64,000 nucleotides of DNA from Escherichia phage ManiWeber_Bas99, in sequence record PQ850618.1; one strand, 5' to 3'. Below, piece after piece: positions 26,101 through 40,208 of this stretch (positions are counted from its first letter, which is position 1; every line of letters begins with the position of its first letter). Made by a program: the position numbers and the translations under genes. The notes below the pieces were generated by a model. It was not told where the DNA came from and searched no databases. It was given only the letters and a program-made list of their open reading frames with translations.

Positions 26101-26724
26101 TTATTGTCCTGTAACTTCTCTGATCACACGGTCTTCAAGTTCCAGCTTCTTTACCATTTTGCAGGAGTGCTCATAAGCCTGATCAGTCGATTTGATGAAT
26201 GTGCCGTTGTACATGACACCTTTTCGGTCTTTAATGTCTTCGTAGGCAGCTTGCGCACAGTCGGATAAGCGAAGGCCATAATCATGAGCTACGCCGGAAA
26301 GGTAATCGACTGCGGCCATGATGGTCACGTCAATATCCATGGTCTGATTCTTAGCGATTGCATCACCAAGTCGTCCAAGGGTCTTTGCCAGGCGAAGGAT
26401 AAATGAATGAGGGTGAGCACCTTTATCAGCGCAACCGCCGCCATTAATGTTTTCGATTTCAGTACCGTTTTGCGCTGCCAGGATGGTCAACACAACAAGG
26501 CAATCGCCGATGTCATCCTTAATTGCGGCCTGCAAGTCACAGATGGCCTGCTCTGTATATCCAATTTCAGGGTCAAAGAACACAAGGTCATGTAATTGAT
26601 CAACGTGGTCTGTCAACTCCCCAAACTCGCTAATAAGCTTCGGGTATTGGTCCTTAAGGTCGCAGCCTTGGATGATGTTACGGTCAGAAGCCCACTGGCG
26701 AATGTTTGCATAAATCTGGTTCAT
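26101..26724 (-). CDS. MazG-like nucleoside triphosphate pyrophosphohydrolase
   Basis: 207 aa; EFGELTDH and DIGDCLVVLTILA motifs typical of all-alpha MazG-family NTP-PPases. Confidence 0.5.
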   Translation of the reverse strand: MNQIYANIRQWASDRNIIQGCDLKDQYPKLISEFGELTDHVDQLHDLVFFDPEIGYTEQAICDLQAAIKDDIGDCLVVLTILAAQNGTEIENINGGGCADKGAHPHSFILRLAKTLGRLGDAIAKNQTMDIDVTIMAAVDYLSGVAHDYGLRLSDCAQAAYEDIKDRKGVMYNGTFIKSTDQAYEHSCKMVKKLELEDRVIREVTGQ

Positions 26725-35278: not shown

Positions 35279-35962
35279 TTATTTCCCAAATGGAATATCA
35301 GTACCAGACATAAAGCGCCATGCGCCCGTAATTAAGATATGGCGAATGAAGTCAGCAATTACTTGCGGCTCAGTCTCCAATCCATTCATCAGCGCCTTTT
35401 TCTGGTATTCAGCAGCATACTCAGGAGTCCAGCCGCGAGTCGCGCAAACAGCATCTTCAATCTGTTTGGACATGCCAGTACCACGTAGCTTATTAGGACT
35501 AATAGAAAATACCGTGATCCCGTATTTAGGCGTAAGCTCGTGAGCCATCTGCTTGCTAATCATGAGCGCAGCAGCCTTGGAAGCATTATAACACAAGCTG
35601 GATGTCATAGGAATATGCGCAGCGTTGGAAACGATATTGATCACAAAACCTTTGTTGTCGATAAGACTTTTCAGCGCGGCTTGAGTCGTGTTGACGAAAG
35701 AGAAGGCGTTGGTGTGCATAACGCGATTGAACTCTTCGTAGTTAACATCTTCAAACCAGTTGTTGGAGTTGACGCCAGCACAGTTGATCAAGCCTTCTAC
35801 ATCATATGGGCTTAAAATTTCTTTCATCTGTTTCGCGTCGCGGACGTCATATCCGTATGCTGAATCGATTCCAAGCACGTTATGACCGTAAGCGCCAAGG
35901 GTGTCAAAAATAGATTTACCAAGACCGGAATTGGAACCTGTTACAACAATTACTTTTTTCAT
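35279..35962 (-). CDS. Short-chain dehydrogenase/reductase (SDR)
   Basis: 227 aa; cofactor motif VTGSNSGLGKS, catalytic YNASK. Confidence 0.75.
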   Translation of the reverse strand: MKKVIVVTGSNSGLGKSIFDTLGAYGHNVLGIDSAYGYDVRDAKQMKEILSPYDVEGLINCAGVNSNNWFEDVNYEEFNRVMHTNAFSFVNTTQAALKSLIDNKGFVINIVSNAAHIPMTSSLCYNASKAAALMISKQMAHELTPKYGITVFSISPNKLRGTGMSKQIEDAVCATRGWTPEYAAEYQKKALMNGLETEPQVIADFIRHILITGAWRFMSGTDIPFGK

Positions 35963-36027: not shown

Positions 36028-36900
36028 CTATTTATTGAAATTAATATTGTGGGTGTTGACGAGACGTTCACACATGGCGCTGTAAACACCATCGTCGTGT
36101 ATAGAGTCTTCGTGCTTCAGGCCGCTGATTGCAAAGCGTGTAAGCTTGACAATCTTAAGCTCGAACAGATGCCACATGTGGTAGTCTTCCGGCGTTTTCA
36201 ACGTTACGCCATTAGGGAAAAGCACCTGCATAACCTGGCCAACCATCACGGCATTATCGCCATAGACAGCGTTGCGCTCACGGAAGGTTGCTGCCATTGC
36301 ATCAAGAATATCGGCGGCAGTTGCCGGAGATTGTTCAACTTCCACAGCCTTAGTCTCTTCTTGCCCTGTTGCGCTTGGATCAATTGCTAATTGTTGCACC
36401 ACTTCACCTGCCTTGCAAAGATTAAATGTAAAAGCGATTTTATTTTGAGCAACGGAATTATAATACAATGCTTCATCTTGCATCCGCGCGAGCACGTCTT
36501 GTCGGTCGTCGAATACATTGATGATTCGATAATCGCCGTGCCGCAATGCGTGCGATAGCCATGCAGATTTCATAATAGTTGATGGACGTTTGTCGCCATA
36601 GTCTCTCATCTTGATTGTAAATTCATCAAAAGGAAAAACATTGTCCAGACGTTCAAAAGTCACTTGTCTGTATTTTTCTGGCCTTGCAGTCCAATATTCA
36701 ACCGCCTCACCGCGAAGAGATGCCGACTCTACTGCTGATGCAATGTGAGGATAGAACTGATCATAACCAATACCGCTGTGATAGTCATCATAGTCTGACA
36801 ACGGACCTGCCACCTTGATGCGGTCTAAGCGCCAACGGTCATCAAACAGCGTTCCGTCAAGGTCGAATACGTTTAATATTTGGTTATTTTTAATACTCAT
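36028..36900 (-). CDS. HAD-superfamily phosphatase-like protein with C-terminal all-alpha domain
   Basis: 290 aa; HAD motif I FDLDGTL near the N-terminus, later VFDDRQDV; C-terminal half helical, possibly MazG-like. Confidence 0.45.
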   Translation of the reverse strand: MSIKNNQILNVFDLDGTLFDDRWRLDRIKVAGPLSDYDDYHSGIGYDQFYPHIASAVESASLRGEAVEYWTARPEKYRQVTFERLDNVFPFDEFTIKMRDYGDKRPSTIMKSAWLSHALRHGDYRIINVFDDRQDVLARMQDEALYYNSVAQNKIAFTFNLCKAGEVVQQLAIDPSATGQEETKAVEVEQSPATAADILDAMAATFRERNAVYGDNAVMVGQVMQVLFPNGVTLKTPEDYHMWHLFELKIVKLTRFAISGLKHEDSIHDDGVYSAMCERLVNTHNINFNK

Positions 36901-37706
36901 CCCTTTGACACTCCATCTTTAGCAACTGGATTGTTTGTGATTGGCGCGGCATCCCAAAACTGGATGCGCAACTCTTCTTGCTGTGCCGTGGTATCCATCC
37001 AATCACGATACCACGGGCAATGGGCTTTGCCATGACGAGGAAACGCGCATTTACCCATACCGATGCATTGCGGCTGTAGTAAAGGATTAGCCCATGGGTG
37101 CACCTTGAGGACTTCCGCAACCATTGCGCGAAATACTTCTTGATACTCACCTTGTGTGCGCGTGCACAAGCGGTTTGACGCCATCTGCTGCAGCGTGCGC
37201 AAGTTGAACTTTGCCATGATATGCGTTTGCATATTAGAAGGCAACACGGCACGTGCATCCTGAATCTCTGCGCCAGCCGCGCGAAGTTCTTGATACAAAG
37301 CATCGATAGTCGCCATTGCATCATCCCATTTCTCTGCCAATGAGTGATGTCTTATGTGCACATCATCAAATGCATTTTCATCATTGCAGTCAGAAGGGTG
37401 CTCGAATGCCTTCGGACGAATCGCATCAAATGCAGAAGATTCCTGAGCGCGGCTGGTGCGTTCTTGGTATGCACCTGTGCGTGTGCGTACCATCTGATGA
37501 GTCATATTCTTTGATACAGCGGTGATGTCAAAGATATAGTCCACAAAGTCAAAAGGCGACTTGATGGTGTCAAGCATGTAGCGCCAATGCTCTTGCTTCT
37601 CTGATTCCGTCATCTCAGAGACAGGCTTACCAGTCATGCGCGTGTTCTTTGTTTCCAGCAAAAGGTCAAGTGCATCTTGGGTGTATCGAATTAATTCAAC
37701 TTTCAT
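36897..37706 (-). CDS. ThyX-like (flavin-dependent thymidylate synthase homolog), divergent
   Basis: 269 aa; ...SPFDFVDYIFDITAVSKNMTHQMVRTRTGAYQERTSRAQ... aligns with the ThyX RHR...S.RY block but reads RTR; ...AVLPSNMQTHIMAKFNLRTLQQM... matches the second ThyX block. Confidence 0.55.
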   Translation of the reverse strand: MKVELIRYTQDALDLLLETKNTRMTGKPVSEMTESEKQEHWRYMLDTIKSPFDFVDYIFDITAVSKNMTHQMVRTRTGAYQERTSRAQESSAFDAIRPKAFEHPSDCNDENAFDDVHIRHHSLAEKWDDAMATIDALYQELRAAGAEIQDARAVLPSNMQTHIMAKFNLRTLQQMASNRLCTRTQGEYQEVFRAMVAEVLKVHPWANPLLQPQCIGMGKCAFPRHGKAHCPWYRDWMDTTAQQEELRIQFWDAAPITNNPVAKDGVSKG

Positions 37707-37719
37707 TTTAATTATCCTA

Positions 37720-38166
37720 TTAACGGTAATTTACTAGTTGCTGATCACCAGAGAAGGTGCAATGATAAACGAATTGTGCGTTATAAAGCAACTGAAAACT
37801 TTTCTTTGGTTCATTATTAGAACTCATTGATGTAAAGATTTCTGCACCAGAACGATTTTCACCAATCAGGTTGATAAAGCCGCCAGTTGAACGAGGCTGA
37901 ACGAAAGTGAAACGTTGCATCCACGGAGTGCGGTTGGCACCTTTCCCTGTGAATCCTTGAATCTGAATATTCAGGCCTTCTTGCTCGTTCACACCGATGT
38001 AAGTGGTAATTGTTGCGCCAGTCGTTGCTGCGGTCTTGCCGTCCATCGCTTCGCAATCGTAAACAGCGATTGAATCTGAAGTACGGACAGCGGCTTCAGT
38101 CGCTTCCATATACATGGTTCCGAGAATAGCAGTTGCGGCAAGCGCGATTCCAGTGATTCGTTTCAT
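37720..38166 (-). CDS. Secreted protein
   Basis: 148 aa; signal peptide MKRITGIALAATAILGTMYMEATEAA. Confidence 0.4.
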   Translation of the reverse strand: MKRITGIALAATAILGTMYMEATEAAVRTSDSIAVYDCEAMDGKTAATTGATITTYIGVNEQEGLNIQIQGFTGKGANRTPWMQRFTFVQPRSTGGFINLIGENRSGAEIFTSMSSNNEPKKSFQLLYNAQFVYHCTFSGDQQLVNYR

Positions 38167-38231: not shown

Positions 38232-39227
38232 TTATTTATTAGCAATATAAGCAAATTTTTGATAGTTATTTGCTTTGATGAGTTTTTCAACTTCAACAAG
38301 GTCATGAGCAACGTCATCAAGCAAAATGTTTCGCCAAGTAGCGAATCGACCGACACTAAATACGTTCAAATCCATGGTCAGCTGTAGGAGTAGAGCGTGT
38401 CGCAAGTCTTTCGGAATGTCGACAATCTTGCCATACTTCTGGTCGACCTTTTCAACTTCTTCGAGAGCGATGTCACTCCATGAGAGGCCAAAGGCCGTCA
38501 ACACTTCGTCGACTTCTGCGCGCAGCTTGATGTCACGGTAACGAGTAATGCCGCCAGCGGCTTCAACTGCGGCTTCACTTACGCTAACCAAAGGAATTGT
38601 TTCAATGATCAGCGTGTCACCAGTGATTGATGCGCGGTAAGTTCTGACGGAGTAGTCAGGAAAGTAAATGGTTTGATACAGTTCACACTTGCGTTTAATC
38701 TTAAAGCGGTAAACACGAATGTTTGCCTTGTCGAATGAGAAATCAATCTTTTGATCAATCCCAGCAAGCTTCATTATGACTGGCAGCGGCGATGTGTTGA
38801 TGATTGGCGTCTCGCTATAGCCGCAAAGAGTATCAACAGGAGTATTAAAGAATATGCGGTCACCCAGTTTGTCGACAAGCTGATCATAAAAGTCATCAGG
38901 CGCAATATAACGCGTTGCAGTTTTAAGCTTCATGATTGAACGGCTGCCAAACTGATTGGTGACCTTCATGGAATACATATTGGCAAGGTTGATTGGGCAA
39001 TGGTCGTGGTAGTAGTTGCCGCGAAAATACACAGCCTTGTCAACTGTCACGGCTTTAAAAGGGATTCCGGTAATACGGCTTACTTCTTCGCTGCGAAAGC
39101 GTAGCAATGCCTTGTGCTGTGGCGCTCGCTCCCCTGCTTCGTACACAATAGAGTTCGGGAAGTGACACGCGGTAATAAGTCCTGCCAAACCGCCGCCGAT
39201 AATCATTACAGGTTGTTTCATGTTCAT
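38232..39227 (-). CDS. FAD/NAD(P)-binding oxidoreductase (possibly Glf-like)
   Basis: 331 aa; N-terminal Rossmann motif VMIIGGGLAGL; C-terminal ...GRFATWRNILLDDV... resembles UDP-galactopyranose mutase-type flavoenzymes. Confidence 0.5.
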   Translation of the reverse strand: MNMKQPVMIIGGGLAGLITACHFPNSIVYEAGERAPQHKALLRFRSEEVSRITGIPFKAVTVDKAVYFRGNYYHDHCPINLANMYSMKVTNQFGSRSIMKLKTATRYIAPDDFYDQLVDKLGDRIFFNTPVDTLCGYSETPIINTSPLPVIMKLAGIDQKIDFSFDKANIRVYRFKIKRKCELYQTIYFPDYSVRTYRASITGDTLIIETIPLVSVSEAAVEAAGGITRYRDIKLRAEVDEVLTAFGLSWSDIALEEVEKVDQKYGKIVDIPKDLRHALLLQLTMDLNVFSVGRFATWRNILLDDVAHDLVEVEKLIKANNYQKFAYIANK

Positions 39228-39362: not shown

Positions 39363-40208
39363 TTATTCCGCTTGATCACCGTCTTCAGCATCGTCGTTGG
39401 ATTCAACATCGACAAACTCGATGTGACCCATCTCTTCCAGCTTGCTCAGGTAGGAGCGAACGGAAGCGCCAAACAGTTGATCTTTAACTTTTTCGCCCAG
39501 CTCATCGATAGACTGTGCCACACCAACTTCGCCTTCTTTGATCGCCGCCAGAACGCGTCCACGGGTGGAATGCTCTTGCGGCTGGCTCAGGCCGTTGCCA
39601 GTGTAGATGAAGTGAGTGGCTTTTGCACGACGCTGACCGTTTGCCTTTTTAGCAGCCTTACGTTCTGCGATGGCTTTGCGACGTTCTTCAGCTTCTTTCT
39701 TACGCTGTTCTTTCTGCTGTTCTGCAGCTTCTTTAGCCGCAATCTTAGCAGCTTCACGCTCTGCCTTGCGTTTCGCTTTAGCTTCTTCTTTGGCCTTTTC
39801 TTTTTCGGCCTTCGCTGCAGCACGGGCTTGATCACGCTCTGCTTTCTTGGCCGCAGCCTGCTCAGCTTTCAGGCGCTTGGCTTCTTCTTTAGCCTTTGCC
39901 TTTTCGATTTCTTTTGCTGCTTTAGCGGCTTCACGCTCTGCTTTCTTAGCAGCAGCCTTTTCTGCACGCTCTTTAGCTTTCTTAGCTGCTTCTTCAGCAC
40001 GCTTCTGAGCCTTCTCATCAGCAGCCTGCTTGCGTTTCAACGCAGCTTCTTCACGCTTGGCTTGTTTTTCCTGCTCACGCTTCTGGCGTTTTTCTTCGGC
40101 TTCTTTCTTTTTAGCCAGGCGTTTTTCTTCAGCCACGCGACGACGTTCTGCTGCGGCTGCTTGTTTTTCTTCTTTAGATAATACTTTGATTGCTTCGGCC
40201 ATATTCAC
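39363..40208 (-). CDS. K/E/A-rich charged helical protein with small C-terminal globular domain
   Basis: 281 aa; about 190 aa of (A/E/K/R)-only repeats consistent with a single long alpha helix or TolA/histone-H1-like tail. Confidence 0.5.
   Translation of the reverse strand: MNMAEAIKVLSKEEKQAAAAERRRVAEEKRLAKKKEAEEKRQKREQEKQAKREEAALKRKQAADEKAQKRAEEAAKKAKERAEKAAAKKAEREAAKAAKEIEKAKAKEEAKRLKAEQAAAKKAERDQARAAAKAEKEKAKEEAKAKRKAEREAAKIAAKEAAEQQKEQRKKEAEERRKAIAERKAAKKANGQRRAKATHFIYTGNGLSQPQEHSTRGRVLAAIKEGEVGVAQSIDELGEKVKDQLFGASVRSYLSKLEEMGHIEFVDVESNDDAEDGDQAE

What the first reader, a model, noticed from the sequence alone, without database searches (positions are those of the whole stretch)
36897..37706. 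ThyX homolog with a substituted signature motif (RTR in place of RHR)
The protein aligns with both conserved ThyX blocks, but the phosphate-binding RHR...S.RY signature reads RTR...SRAQ. A change at a substrate-contacting residue could mean altered substrate or product (for example hydroxymethylation rather than methylation), or loss of activity.
Basis: partly seen in the sequence, partly recalled or inferred. Interest (0 to 1): 0.5.

Follow-up and report, generated by a model that had tools for sequence, protein, structure and literature searches.

The report
Virus-type ThyX with divergent motif
This gene is the phage's flavin-dependent thymidylate synthase (ThyX) homologue, and its odd "RTR" motif is not a one-off mutation but the hallmark of a large, conserved, virus-specific ThyX subfamily that has never been tested biochemically.

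Summary
ORF 36897-37706 (-) encodes a 269-aa ThyX-fold protein in a Wifcevirus (E. coli myovirus) genome. Its signature reads R74-T75-R76...T84-S85-R86-A87 where T. maritima ThyX has R78-H79-R80...S88-G89-R90-Y91.

The change is not idiosyncratic. RTR is invariant in the 120 closest homologues and is the commonest state (68 of 126) among the nearest 50%-identity clusters. The gene is under purifying selection (dN/dS 0.04-0.21), so loss of activity is unlikely.

The residues reported to hydrogen-bond dUMP (R78, R80, S88, R90), plus R147 and R174, are kept. The His of RHR is not among them. The subfamily also lacks His53 (folate/flavin stacking) and Tyr91. About half of it, including this protein, has four all-or-none cysteines that suggest a metal site absent from solved ThyX structures.

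The gene is linked to a HAD-DUF6378 phosphatase and an uncharacterised UDP-galactopyranose-mutase/amine-oxidase-fold flavoprotein. The same three genes recur in an unrelated 206-kb Rhizobium phage beside dUTPase and ribonucleotide reductase.

Most likely it is a working dUMP methylase of a variant kind. A different product or cofactor logic is not excluded.

The parts
36897..37706 (-). ThyX-family gene (269 aa plus stop)
   Evidence: Pfam Thy1 E 1.2e-29. ThyX fold by Foldseek. 95-98% identical orthologues are annotated as thymidylate synthase in Wifcevirus genomes.
37446..37487 (-). Variant ThyX signature R74-T75-R76-T-G-A-Y-Q-E-R-T84-S85-R86-A87, equivalent to T. maritima R78-H79-R80...S88-G89-R90-Y91
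   Evidence: HMMER alignments and coordinates. R74, T75, R76, R86 and A87 are invariant in 121 of 121 close homologues.
37563..37565 (-). I48, at the position of T. maritima His53 (folate/flavin-stacking histidine)
   Evidence: Alignments. This position is I, L or V in most of the viral subfamily. The role of H53 is taken from PMC11940539.
37497..37499 (-). H70, a subfamily-conserved His at the position of T. maritima R74
   Evidence: His in 120 of 121 close homologues and 108 of 126 cluster representatives.
37251..37253 (-). R152, equivalent to T. maritima R147
   Evidence: Arg in 126 of 126 representatives.
37170..37172 (-). R179, equivalent to T. maritima R174
   Evidence: Arg in 124 of 126 representatives.
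37017..37166 (-). Four-cysteine set C181, C214, C220, C230 (C-x32-C-x5-C-x9-C), a putative metal site. It links the loop after R179 to the C-terminal extension.
   Evidence: Invariant in 121 of 121 close homologues. All-or-none across representatives: 64 with four, 56 with none, 6 partial. The region is modelled at pLDDT 90-93. No counterpart exists in any solved ThyX sequence. The geometry was not measured.
36900..37091 (-). C-terminal extension beyond the Pfam Thy1 domain (residues 206-269)
   Evidence: The Pfam match ends at residue 205. PDB ThyX alignments stop at about residue 206.
36028..36900 (-). Linked gene: HAD (PNKP-type) phosphatase fused to a DUF6378 domain. Its ATG overlaps the ThyX stop codon (ATGA, 36897-36900).
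   Evidence: Pfam HAD_PNKP. C-terminal domain relatives carry PF19905 DUF6378. A HAD gene lies directly after ThyX in the metagenomic contigs L013 and L017, one small ORF downstream in PB1, and eight small genes downstream in a Rhizobium phage.
38232..39227 (-). Linked gene: 331-aa FAD-type Rossmann flavoprotein of unknown function (phrog_4828)
   Evidence: No Pfam hit. AlphaFold pLDDT 86.9. Best folds are UDP-galactopyranose mutase, monoamine oxidase and nicotine oxidoreductase. Homologues lie next to the variant ThyX in four other lineages, and genus counts in phage records match those of ThyX.

Best explanation
The gene encodes an active flavin-dependent dUMP C5-methylase, that is, a thymidylate synthase of the ThyX fold. 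It belongs to a large virus-specific subfamily whose signature differs from the textbook RHRX7S...RY motif.

Shown:
- It has the ThyX fold.
- It keeps every arginine that in T. maritima ThyX holds dUMP and the reduced flavin (R78, R80, R90, R147, R174), plus Q75 and a hydroxyl at S88.
- It is under purifying selection.
- It sits in the replication and nucleotide-metabolism module of the phage.

Inferred:
- It binds FAD and dUMP, receives a methylene on flavin N5 and passes it to uracil C5, giving dTMP to boost phage DNA synthesis in a ThyA host.
- The His to Thr change belongs to a coordinated subfamily signature: His53 to Ile, Arg74 to His, His79 to Thr, Tyr91 to Ala. The parts of the canonical mechanism that use His53 and Tyr91 (folate/NADPH stacking, gating of the reduced flavin, acid catalysis) must therefore be done differently.
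- In the branch of PB1-like phages (Pseudomonas phage PB1 relatives, including Wifcevirus), four invariant cysteines probably bind a metal (Zn or Fe-S) that fixes the R179 loop to a C-terminal extension.
- The co-inherited flavoprotein and HAD-DUF6378 genes probably work in the same pathway.
For: - Pfam Thy1 full-length match and ThyX fold.
- dUMP-contact residues R78, R80, S88 and R90, as listed in PMC3498832, are conserved as R74, R76, T84 and R86.
- Across 126 cluster representatives the arginine equivalents are nearly invariant: R78 and R147 126 of 126, R174 124, R80 123, R90 121.
- RTR is invariant in 121 of 121 close homologues down to 53% identity.
- dN/dS is 0.04 against Bas98 and 0.21 against WFH. 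Synonymous sites are saturated against MyoSmar and PB1, yet the motif is unchanged, with synonymous codon changes at T75.
- The gene is present in every Pbunavirus, Wifcevirus and Myosmarvirus record found, 480 records in all.
- It lies next to DNA polymerase, helicases, ligase and a MazG-like gene.
- In Rhizobium phage RHph_TM2_3B the variant ThyX (RNR form) lies about 3 kb from dUTPase and ribonucleotide reductase genes, the classical dTMP-supply context.
Against: - No member of the non-His subfamily is known to me to have been assayed or used in complementation.
- The protein falls just below NCBI's ThyX equivalog cut-off (80.3 against 87.9 bits).
- It lacks Tyr91, whose mutation in T. maritima ThyX slows flavin oxidation about 1000-fold, and His53, which stacks on folate and on reduced flavin (PMC11940539).
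- The gene is tightly linked to two enzymes of unknown function.
Confidence: 0.65

Rival explanations
1. The enzyme still activates dUMP at C5 through a flavin-methylene adduct but releases a different product, for example 5-hydroxymethyl-dUMP formed by water capture of the exocyclic methylene. That product would feed a DNA modification that protects the phage from restriction. The HAD-DUF6378 protein and the flavoprotein would process nucleotides in the same pathway.
For: - Tyr91 and His53, residues tied to the methyl-forming half-reaction, are lost.
- Wifcevirus restriction resistance is unexplained.
- The gene is consistently linked with a phosphatase fusion and a second flavoenzyme.
- A MazG-like pyrophosphatase lies elsewhere in the module.
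- A remote ThyX-fold protein exists in Bacillus phage SP-15, which from memory has hypermodified thymine.
Against: - No 5-hmdU kinase, amino-acid:DNA transferase, glycosyltransferase or other known hypermodification gene is annotated or was found among the genes examined.
- The same ThyX type sits beside dUTPase and ribonucleotide reductase in Rhizobium phages, as ordinary thymidylate synthases do.
- The subfamily is spread over many phage lineages in which no DNA modification has been reported.
- Wifcevirus remains very sensitive to EcoP1_I.
- No ThyX-family hydroxymethylase was found in the literature searched.
Confidence: 0.15
2. It makes dTMP, but as part of a multi-component system. Having lost the His53/Tyr91 apparatus, the ThyX variant would depend on the co-inherited UGM/amine-oxidase-fold flavoprotein, either for reducing equivalents (possibly through the Cys4 metal site) or for the one-carbon unit. 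The one-carbon unit could be formaldehyde generated in situ, which canonical ThyX can use according to the PDB 7NDW/7NDZ titles.
For: - The flavoprotein has the same genus-by-genus record counts as the T/N-type ThyX in isolated phages.
- It is adjacent to the variant ThyX in four divergent lineages, including a 206-kb Rhizobium phage.
- tblastn finds no flavoprotein homologue in any Gordonia or Mycobacterium phage record; the two actinophage ThyX genes inspected are RQR and carry N-terminal extensions.
- Many invariant Arg and Lys residues in the flavoprotein are suggestive of a phosphorylated substrate.
Against: - Much of the synteny could be inherited with a shared replication module.
- The Cys-less half of the subfamily also has the flavoprotein, so the metal site cannot be an obligatory relay.
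- The fold gives no specific function.
- There is no direct evidence of any interaction.
Confidence: 0.2
3. The protein is a catalytically dead ThyX relic kept for a structural or regulatory role.
For: Three residues of the extended ThyX motif are missing, and the score is below the equivalog cut-off.
Against: All substrate- and flavin-binding arginines are invariant over very large divergence. Purifying selection is strong. The missing residues are replaced by other conserved residues rather than drifting.
Confidence: 0.03

Closest known systems
Canonical flavin-dependent thymidylate synthase ThyX/FDTS (EC 2.1.1.148; Pfam PF02511, TIGR02170; T. maritima TM0449, M. tuberculosis Rv2754c, PBCV-1 A674R)
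   Same: Same fold. Same arginine set for dUMP and reduced flavin: R78, R80, R90, R147, R174. Also Q75 and a hydroxyl at S88.
   Different: His53 to Ile, Arg74 to His, His79 to Thr, Tyr91 to Ala. It adds a 64-residue C-terminal extension with a four-cysteine set that has no counterpart in any solved ThyX. It scores 80.3 bits against the 87.9-bit equivalog cut-off.
Actinophage 'ThyX-like thymidylate synthases' (SEA-PHAGES annotation, e.g. Gordonia phage ParvusTarda gp82, Mycobacterium phage Butterscotch gp67)
   Same: Same viral superclade. The middle residue of RxR is not His, Tyr91 is replaced, and the same four cysteines are present.
   Different: Their motif is RQR with Phe at the Tyr91 position. 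They carry N-terminal extensions and sometimes inteins. No linked flavoprotein homologue was detected in those phages.
Trichodesmium erythraeum ThyX with 'distinctive ThyX motifs' (Liu & Yang 2004, J Bacteriol 186:6316; cited in PMC6514825)
   Same: By its title, a precedent for ThyX proteins that depart from the RHRX7S motif.
   Different: The paper could not be read here. Whether its motifs match this subfamily is unknown. A scan of 185,579 species genomes with non-His Cys4 patterns found only 8 loci, all in metagenome-assembled genomes, and no Trichodesmium.
PolB, the UMP C5-methylase of polyoxin biosynthesis (a ThyX homologue with altered substrate; from memory)
   Same: Shows that ThyX-fold enzymes can change substrate while keeping flavin-dependent C5 methylation.
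   Different: It was not retrieved among PDB sequence matches at E <= 0.001 with either the protein or the family profile. No specific similarity was shown.
ThyA-family dUMP/dCMP hydroxymethylases of phages (SPO1 gp29, T4 gp42; from memory and PMC8989533)
   Same: An analogy only: a thymidylate-synthase-like enzyme that releases a hydroxymethylated instead of a methylated pyrimidine.
   Different: The fold and mechanism are unrelated (cysteine nucleophile, no flavin). No ThyX-family hydroxymethylase was found in the literature searched.

Membership tests
ThyX / Thy1 superfamily (Pfam PF02511) | Sequence match above the Pfam gathering score over the whole domain | tested here: met
   103.9 bits against 24.8; residues 5-205 match profile positions 2-191 of 191.
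ThyX / Thy1 superfamily (Pfam PF02511) | ThyX alpha/beta fold | tested here: met
   AlphaFold model pLDDT 82.9. Foldseek probability 1.00 to 1O26, 2AF6 and 6J61, with TM on the target 0.6-0.75.
FAD-dependent thymidylate synthase, equivalog TIGR02170 (thyX) | Score at or above NCBI's curated equivalog cut-off | tested here: not met
   80.3 bits against a cut-off of 87.9. A canonical-motif relative (P0253) scores 156.
FAD-dependent thymidylate synthase (ThyX motif of Myllykallio 2002, as cited in PMC2826268) | RHRX7S signature | tested here: not met
   The sequence reads R-T-R-X7-T-S. The His is Thr, and the aligned Ser88 is Thr with Ser one residue later.
FAD-dependent thymidylate synthase | dUMP hydrogen-bonding residues R78, R80, S88, R90 (PMC3498832), plus R147 and R174 | tested here: met
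   R74, R76, T84 (hydroxyl retained), R86, R152 and R179. All are invariant in the family.
FAD-dependent thymidylate synthase | His53 (folate/flavin stacking) and Tyr91 (hydrogen bond to His53 and R90; mutation slows catalysis about 1000-fold; PMC11940539) | tested here: not met
   I48 and A87 occupy these positions. The same loss is seen across most of the viral subfamily.
FAD-dependent thymidylate synthase | Binds FAD, forms a homotetramer, converts dUMP to dTMP, complements thyA | not testable with these tools
   Needs protein biochemistry or genetics. No published assay of a non-His member was found.
Phage thymidine-hypermodification pathways (5-hmdU based; PMC8989533) | dUMP hydroxymethylase together with 5-hmdU DNA kinase and amino-acid:DNA transferase (aGPT-Pplase) genes | tested here: not met
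   No such domains were found in the neighbouring genes or in 10 further ORFs scanned, and none is annotated in the closest genome. Not every small ORF was scanned.

The most novel reading that the evidence does not exclude
The variant ThyX, the UGM/amine-oxidase-fold flavoprotein and the HAD-DUF6378 phosphatase form a previously unrecognised three-gene viral pathway for making thymidylate or a modified pyrimidine nucleotide. In this pathway the ThyX has given up the His53/Tyr91 folate/NADPH apparatus and relies on a partner flavoenzyme. In PB1-like phages it would also rely on a Cys4 metal centre. This would define a mechanistically new class of flavin-dependent pyrimidine C5 transferases, present in all Pbunavirus therapy phages.
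Probability: 0.25. Interest if true: 0.7.

Novelty: new variant of a known kind. Interest (0 to 1): 0.4.

Why it matters
ThyX is an antibacterial drug target whose mechanism has been worked out on a handful of canonical enzymes. Here a very large viral subfamily does without three residues of the 'extended ThyX motif', including Tyr91, which is kinetically critical in the T. maritima enzyme. About half of the subfamily has also gained what looks like a metal site next to the catalytic Arg174 loop.

If these enzymes are normal thymidylate synthases, they show which parts of the accepted mechanism are dispensable. If they are not, they point to new nucleotide chemistry in Pbunavirus and Wifcevirus phages. 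Those phages are used in therapy, and the restriction resistance of Wifcevirus is unexplained.

The conserved trio of ThyX, flavoprotein and HAD-DUF6378 also gives a first functional handle on two widespread phage gene families of unknown function, phrog_4828 and DUF6378. The question can be settled with a simple complementation test and one enzyme assay.

Tried and rejected
1. One-off mutation or sequencing error: rejected. RTR is invariant in 121 of 121 homologues and is encoded by different synonymous codons in different phages.

2. Pseudogene or loss of function: rejected on dN/dS and on invariance of the active-site arginines.

3. Changed base specificity (dCMP): not supported. The Arg174 and Arg90 equivalents that read the uracil are invariant. 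This was not tested directly.

4. Cellular organisms that rely only on this variant, which would have proved thymidylate synthase function: a scan of one genome per species found only 8 loci, all in metagenome-assembled genomes. The clade is essentially viral and the argument cannot be made.

5. Literature on a metal or Fe-S cluster in ThyX, on ThyX hydroxymethylases, on the role of His79, and on DNA modification in PB1-like phages: nothing relevant was found. The only digest reported for the PB1-like phage JG024 used SacII (CCGCGG), which says nothing about thymine. Liu & Yang 2004 and Ulmer 2008 are not held in the library.

6. Fused domains in longer relatives as a clue to function: only inteins and unannotated N-terminal extensions were found.

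7. The afdb50 fold library was unavailable.

8. The HAD fusion's C-terminal domain is not detectably related to the dGTP_diPhyd_N protein of contig L013. It is a DUF6378 domain.
Full report
**What the window is.** The 5 kb around the finding is 95-96% identical to Escherichia phages HermannAdler_Bas98, FEC19, WFH, ECML-117 and others. The window is therefore a Wifcevirus genome, a 66-72 kb E. coli myovirus distantly related to the Pseudomonas Pbunavirus (PB1-like) phages (PMC11990801). In those records the ORF is annotated as 'thymidylate synthase'.

**Check of the observation.**
- ORF 36897..37706 (-) encodes 269 aa, with an AGGA ribosome-binding site 8 nt upstream of the ATG.
- It matches Pfam Thy1 over the whole profile (E 1.2e-29).
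- An AlphaFold model built on 43 homologues (pLDDT 82.9) hits only ThyX structures in the PDB (probability 1.00).
- HMMER alignments to T. maritima ThyX, with the single sequence and with the family profile, agree. After removing the 12-residue tag offset they give: I48=H53, H70=R74, Q71=Q75, R74=R78, T75=H79, R76=R80, E82=E86, T84=S88, S85=G89, R86=R90, A87=Y91, R152=R147, R179=R174.
- RHR does read RTR (nt 37479-37487).

**How common the substitution is.**
- Among the 120 closest 90%-identity clusters (53-100% identity, mostly on 60-74 kb phage contigs), R74, T75, R76, R86 and A87 are invariant.
- An exhaustive HMMER search of 1.84 billion cluster representatives gave 1585 hits. In the best 150, 126 cover all motif columns.
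- In those 126 the middle residue of RxR is T in 68, H in 28, Q in 13, S in 8 and N in 5.
- The arginine equivalents are nearly invariant: R78 and R147 126 of 126, R174 124, R80 123, R90 121.
- The His53 position is I, L or V except in about a dozen sequences. The Tyr91 position is V, T, A, F or I except in those same few. Position R74 is His in 108.
- The 'substitution' is therefore one element of a coordinated subfamily signature.
- By tblastn the gene is in 480 phage records. These include 292 Pseudomonas phage records (PB1-like in every listed row) at 49% identity, Wifcevirus, Myosmarvirus, Pantoea Kyle and Xylella MATE2. Rhizobium and Vibrio phages carry an RNR form, and the two actinophage genes inspected carry an RQR form.
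- A scan of one genome for each of 185,579 prokaryotic species with patterns from the non-His, four-cysteine group found only 8 loci, all in metagenome-assembled genomes. The clade is essentially viral.

**Is it functional?**
- Nei-Gojobori dN/dS is 0.04 against Bas98 and 0.21 against WFH.
- Against MyoSmar and PB1 synonymous sites are saturated, yet the 14-residue motif is unchanged or nearly so, with synonymous codon changes at T75 (ACA/ACT). Loss of function is rejected.
- The literature names R78, R80, S88 and R90 as the residues that hydrogen-bond dUMP (PMC3498832) and R78 as stabilising FADH- (PMC11940539). All are kept, with Ser changed to Thr. I could not find a source for the exact role of His79.

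**What is unusual.**
1. Tyr91 and His53 are missing. In T. maritima ThyX, Tyr91 hydrogen-bonds R90 and His53 and is proposed as a general acid, and its mutation slows flavin oxidation about 1000-fold. His53 stacks on the folate pterin and on reduced flavin (PMC11940539).
2. The protein scores 80.3 bits on NCBI's thyX equivalog model, below the 87.9 cut-off. A canonical-motif relative scores 156.
3. Four cysteines (C181, C214, C220, C230; C-x32-C-x5-C-x9-C) are invariant in 121 of 121 close homologues. Across representatives they are all-or-none: 64 with four, 56 with none, 6 partial.
4. C181 lies two residues after the R174 equivalent. The other three lie in a 64-residue C-terminal extension beyond the Pfam domain. 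That extension is modelled confidently (pLDDT 90-93) and has no counterpart in any solved ThyX sequence.

This pattern is what a Cys4 metal site would give, but the geometry could not be measured and Zn cannot be told from Fe-S by sequence. Two observations argue for a structural or accessory role rather than a catalytic one. The set also occurs in relatives with the canonical H53/RHR/RY signature (for example P0253). It is absent from half of the RTR clade. I found no literature on it.

**Genomic context.** On the minus strand the genes run in this order:
- flavoprotein, 39227-38232;
- a 148-aa protein, 38166-37720;
- ThyX, 37706-36897;
- HAD fusion, 36900-36028, with its ATG overlapping the ThyX stop (ATGA);
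- short-chain dehydrogenase, 35962-35279;
- then DNA polymerase and helicases.

*The HAD fusion.* It has an N-terminal PNKP-type phosphatase domain. Relatives of its C-terminal domain (65-75% identical, about 100 aa, stand-alone phage proteins) carry Pfam DUF6378.

*The 331-aa protein.* It has a GxGxxG motif but no Pfam hit. Its model (pLDDT 86.9) is a two-domain FAD Rossmann fold closest to UDP-galactopyranose mutase, monoamine oxidase and nicotine oxidoreductase.

*Linkage of the three genes.*
- PB1: flavoprotein 41% identical; HAD fusion one small ORF downstream of ThyX.
- A 39-kb metagenomic contig, L013: flavoprotein 39% identical, HAD 27%.
- Contig L012: flavoprotein 37% identical.
- A Cys-less RTR contig, L017: flavoprotein 32% identical.
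- Rhizobium phage RHph_TM2_3B, 206 kb, family Kleczkowskaviridae: the flavoprotein homologue is 34% identical (E 4.5e-61) and the HAD protein has the same C-terminal domain at 43% identity (E 1.6e-22). The variant ThyX there lies within about 3 kb of dUTPase and both ribonucleotide reductase subunits.
- In isolated phages the flavoprotein occurs in 361 records, with the same counts as ThyX for Pseudomonas (292), Escherichia (26), Serratia (9), Xanthomonas (6) and Pantoea (3). It occurs in no Gordonia, Mycobacterium or Sulfolobus virus.

Part of this synteny may be inherited with a shared DnaE-type replication module. The Rhizobium case is an independent genomic background, though.

**Interpretation.** The conserved dUMP and flavin arginines, the selection, the replication and nucleotide context, and the dUTPase/RNR neighbourhood in Rhizobium phages all point the same way. 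The gene most likely encodes a working flavin-dependent dUMP methylase that supplies dTMP (confidence about 0.65). Because His53 and Tyr91 are absent, the reductive and one-carbon half-reactions cannot run exactly as in T. maritima ThyX.

A partner-dependent variant is a reasonable subsidiary model (about 0.2). In it the flavoprotein would act as reductase or one-carbon source. The PDB entries 7NDW and 7NDZ show that ThyX flavin can take up formaldehyde.

A different product, such as 5-hmdUMP feeding a DNA modification, remains possible (about 0.15). Two things favour it: Wifcevirus phages resist almost all tested restriction systems with no known protection mechanism, and the linked enzymes are uncharacterised. 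Against it, no known hypermodification genes were found and no ThyX-family hydroxymethylase is described in the searched literature.

**Novelty.** The gene itself has long been annotated; PB1 ORF59 is listed as 'thymidylate synthase complementing protein'. A 2004 paper title indicates that ThyX proteins with 'distinctive motifs' were noticed before, but it could not be read. What seems undescribed is threefold:
- the extent and coherence of the viral signature (loss of H53, H79 and Y91, gain of H at R74);
- the four-cysteine set;
- the conserved trio with phrog_4828 and HAD-DUF6378.

I rate it a new variant of a known kind, with moderate interest (0.4). It is cheap to resolve experimentally.

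Noticed in passing
window 38232-39227 (-): A 331-aa protein with no Pfam or NCBIfam hit (phrog_4828, unknown function). Its model is a FAD Rossmann fold closest to UDP-galactopyranose mutase and monoamine oxidase. It has many invariant Arg and Lys residues. It co-occurs genus-for-genus with the variant ThyX in 361 phage records and lies next to it in five lineages.
   Followed up: partly
window 36028-36900 (-): A PNKP-type HAD phosphatase fused to a DUF6378 domain, annotated elsewhere as 'polynucleotide kinase/phosphorylase' although no kinase domain was detected. Its start codon overlaps the ThyX stop (ATGA). The DUF6378 domain is 65-75% identical to abundant stand-alone phage proteins of about 100 aa.
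   Followed up: partly
window 35279-35962 (-): A FabG-like short-chain dehydrogenase directly downstream of the HAD fusion. It is present in Wifcevirus but not at this position in PB1, so it is probably a lineage-specific addition. Its substrate is unknown.
   Followed up: no
window 37720-38166 (-): A 148-aa protein between the flavoprotein and ThyX, with what looks by eye like an N-terminal signal peptide (MKRITGIALAATAILGTMYM...). It has no hit in Pfam, PHROGs or NCBIfam. At this position PB1 instead has five annotated small ORFs (60-64).
   Followed up: no
window 39363-40208 (-): A 281-aa protein made largely of Lys/Glu/Ala repeats, annotated 'TolA protein' in some relatives (phrog_4765, unknown function).
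   Followed up: no
whole window; PMC11990801: [quoted passage not shown] No anti-restriction or DNA-modification gene was recognised among the genes scanned here.
   Followed up: partly
related proteins P0166, P0159, P0266: Some relatives carry inteins inserted in the ThyX domain, and several have unannotated N-terminal extensions of 100-350 aa. The two actinophage genes inspected are of the RQR/Cys4 type.
   Followed up: partly
BFVD hit A0A127AWA5: Bacillus phage SP-15, which from memory has hypermodified thymine, encodes a 413-aa 'thymidylate synthetase' that is a remote ThyX-fold match (E 1e-4, 12% identity).
   Followed up: no
window 26101-26724 (-): A MazG-like nucleotide pyrophosphatase lies in the same replication module. 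Related contigs carry dATP/dGTP pyrophosphohydrolase-type genes near ThyX (L013, L017).
   Followed up: no
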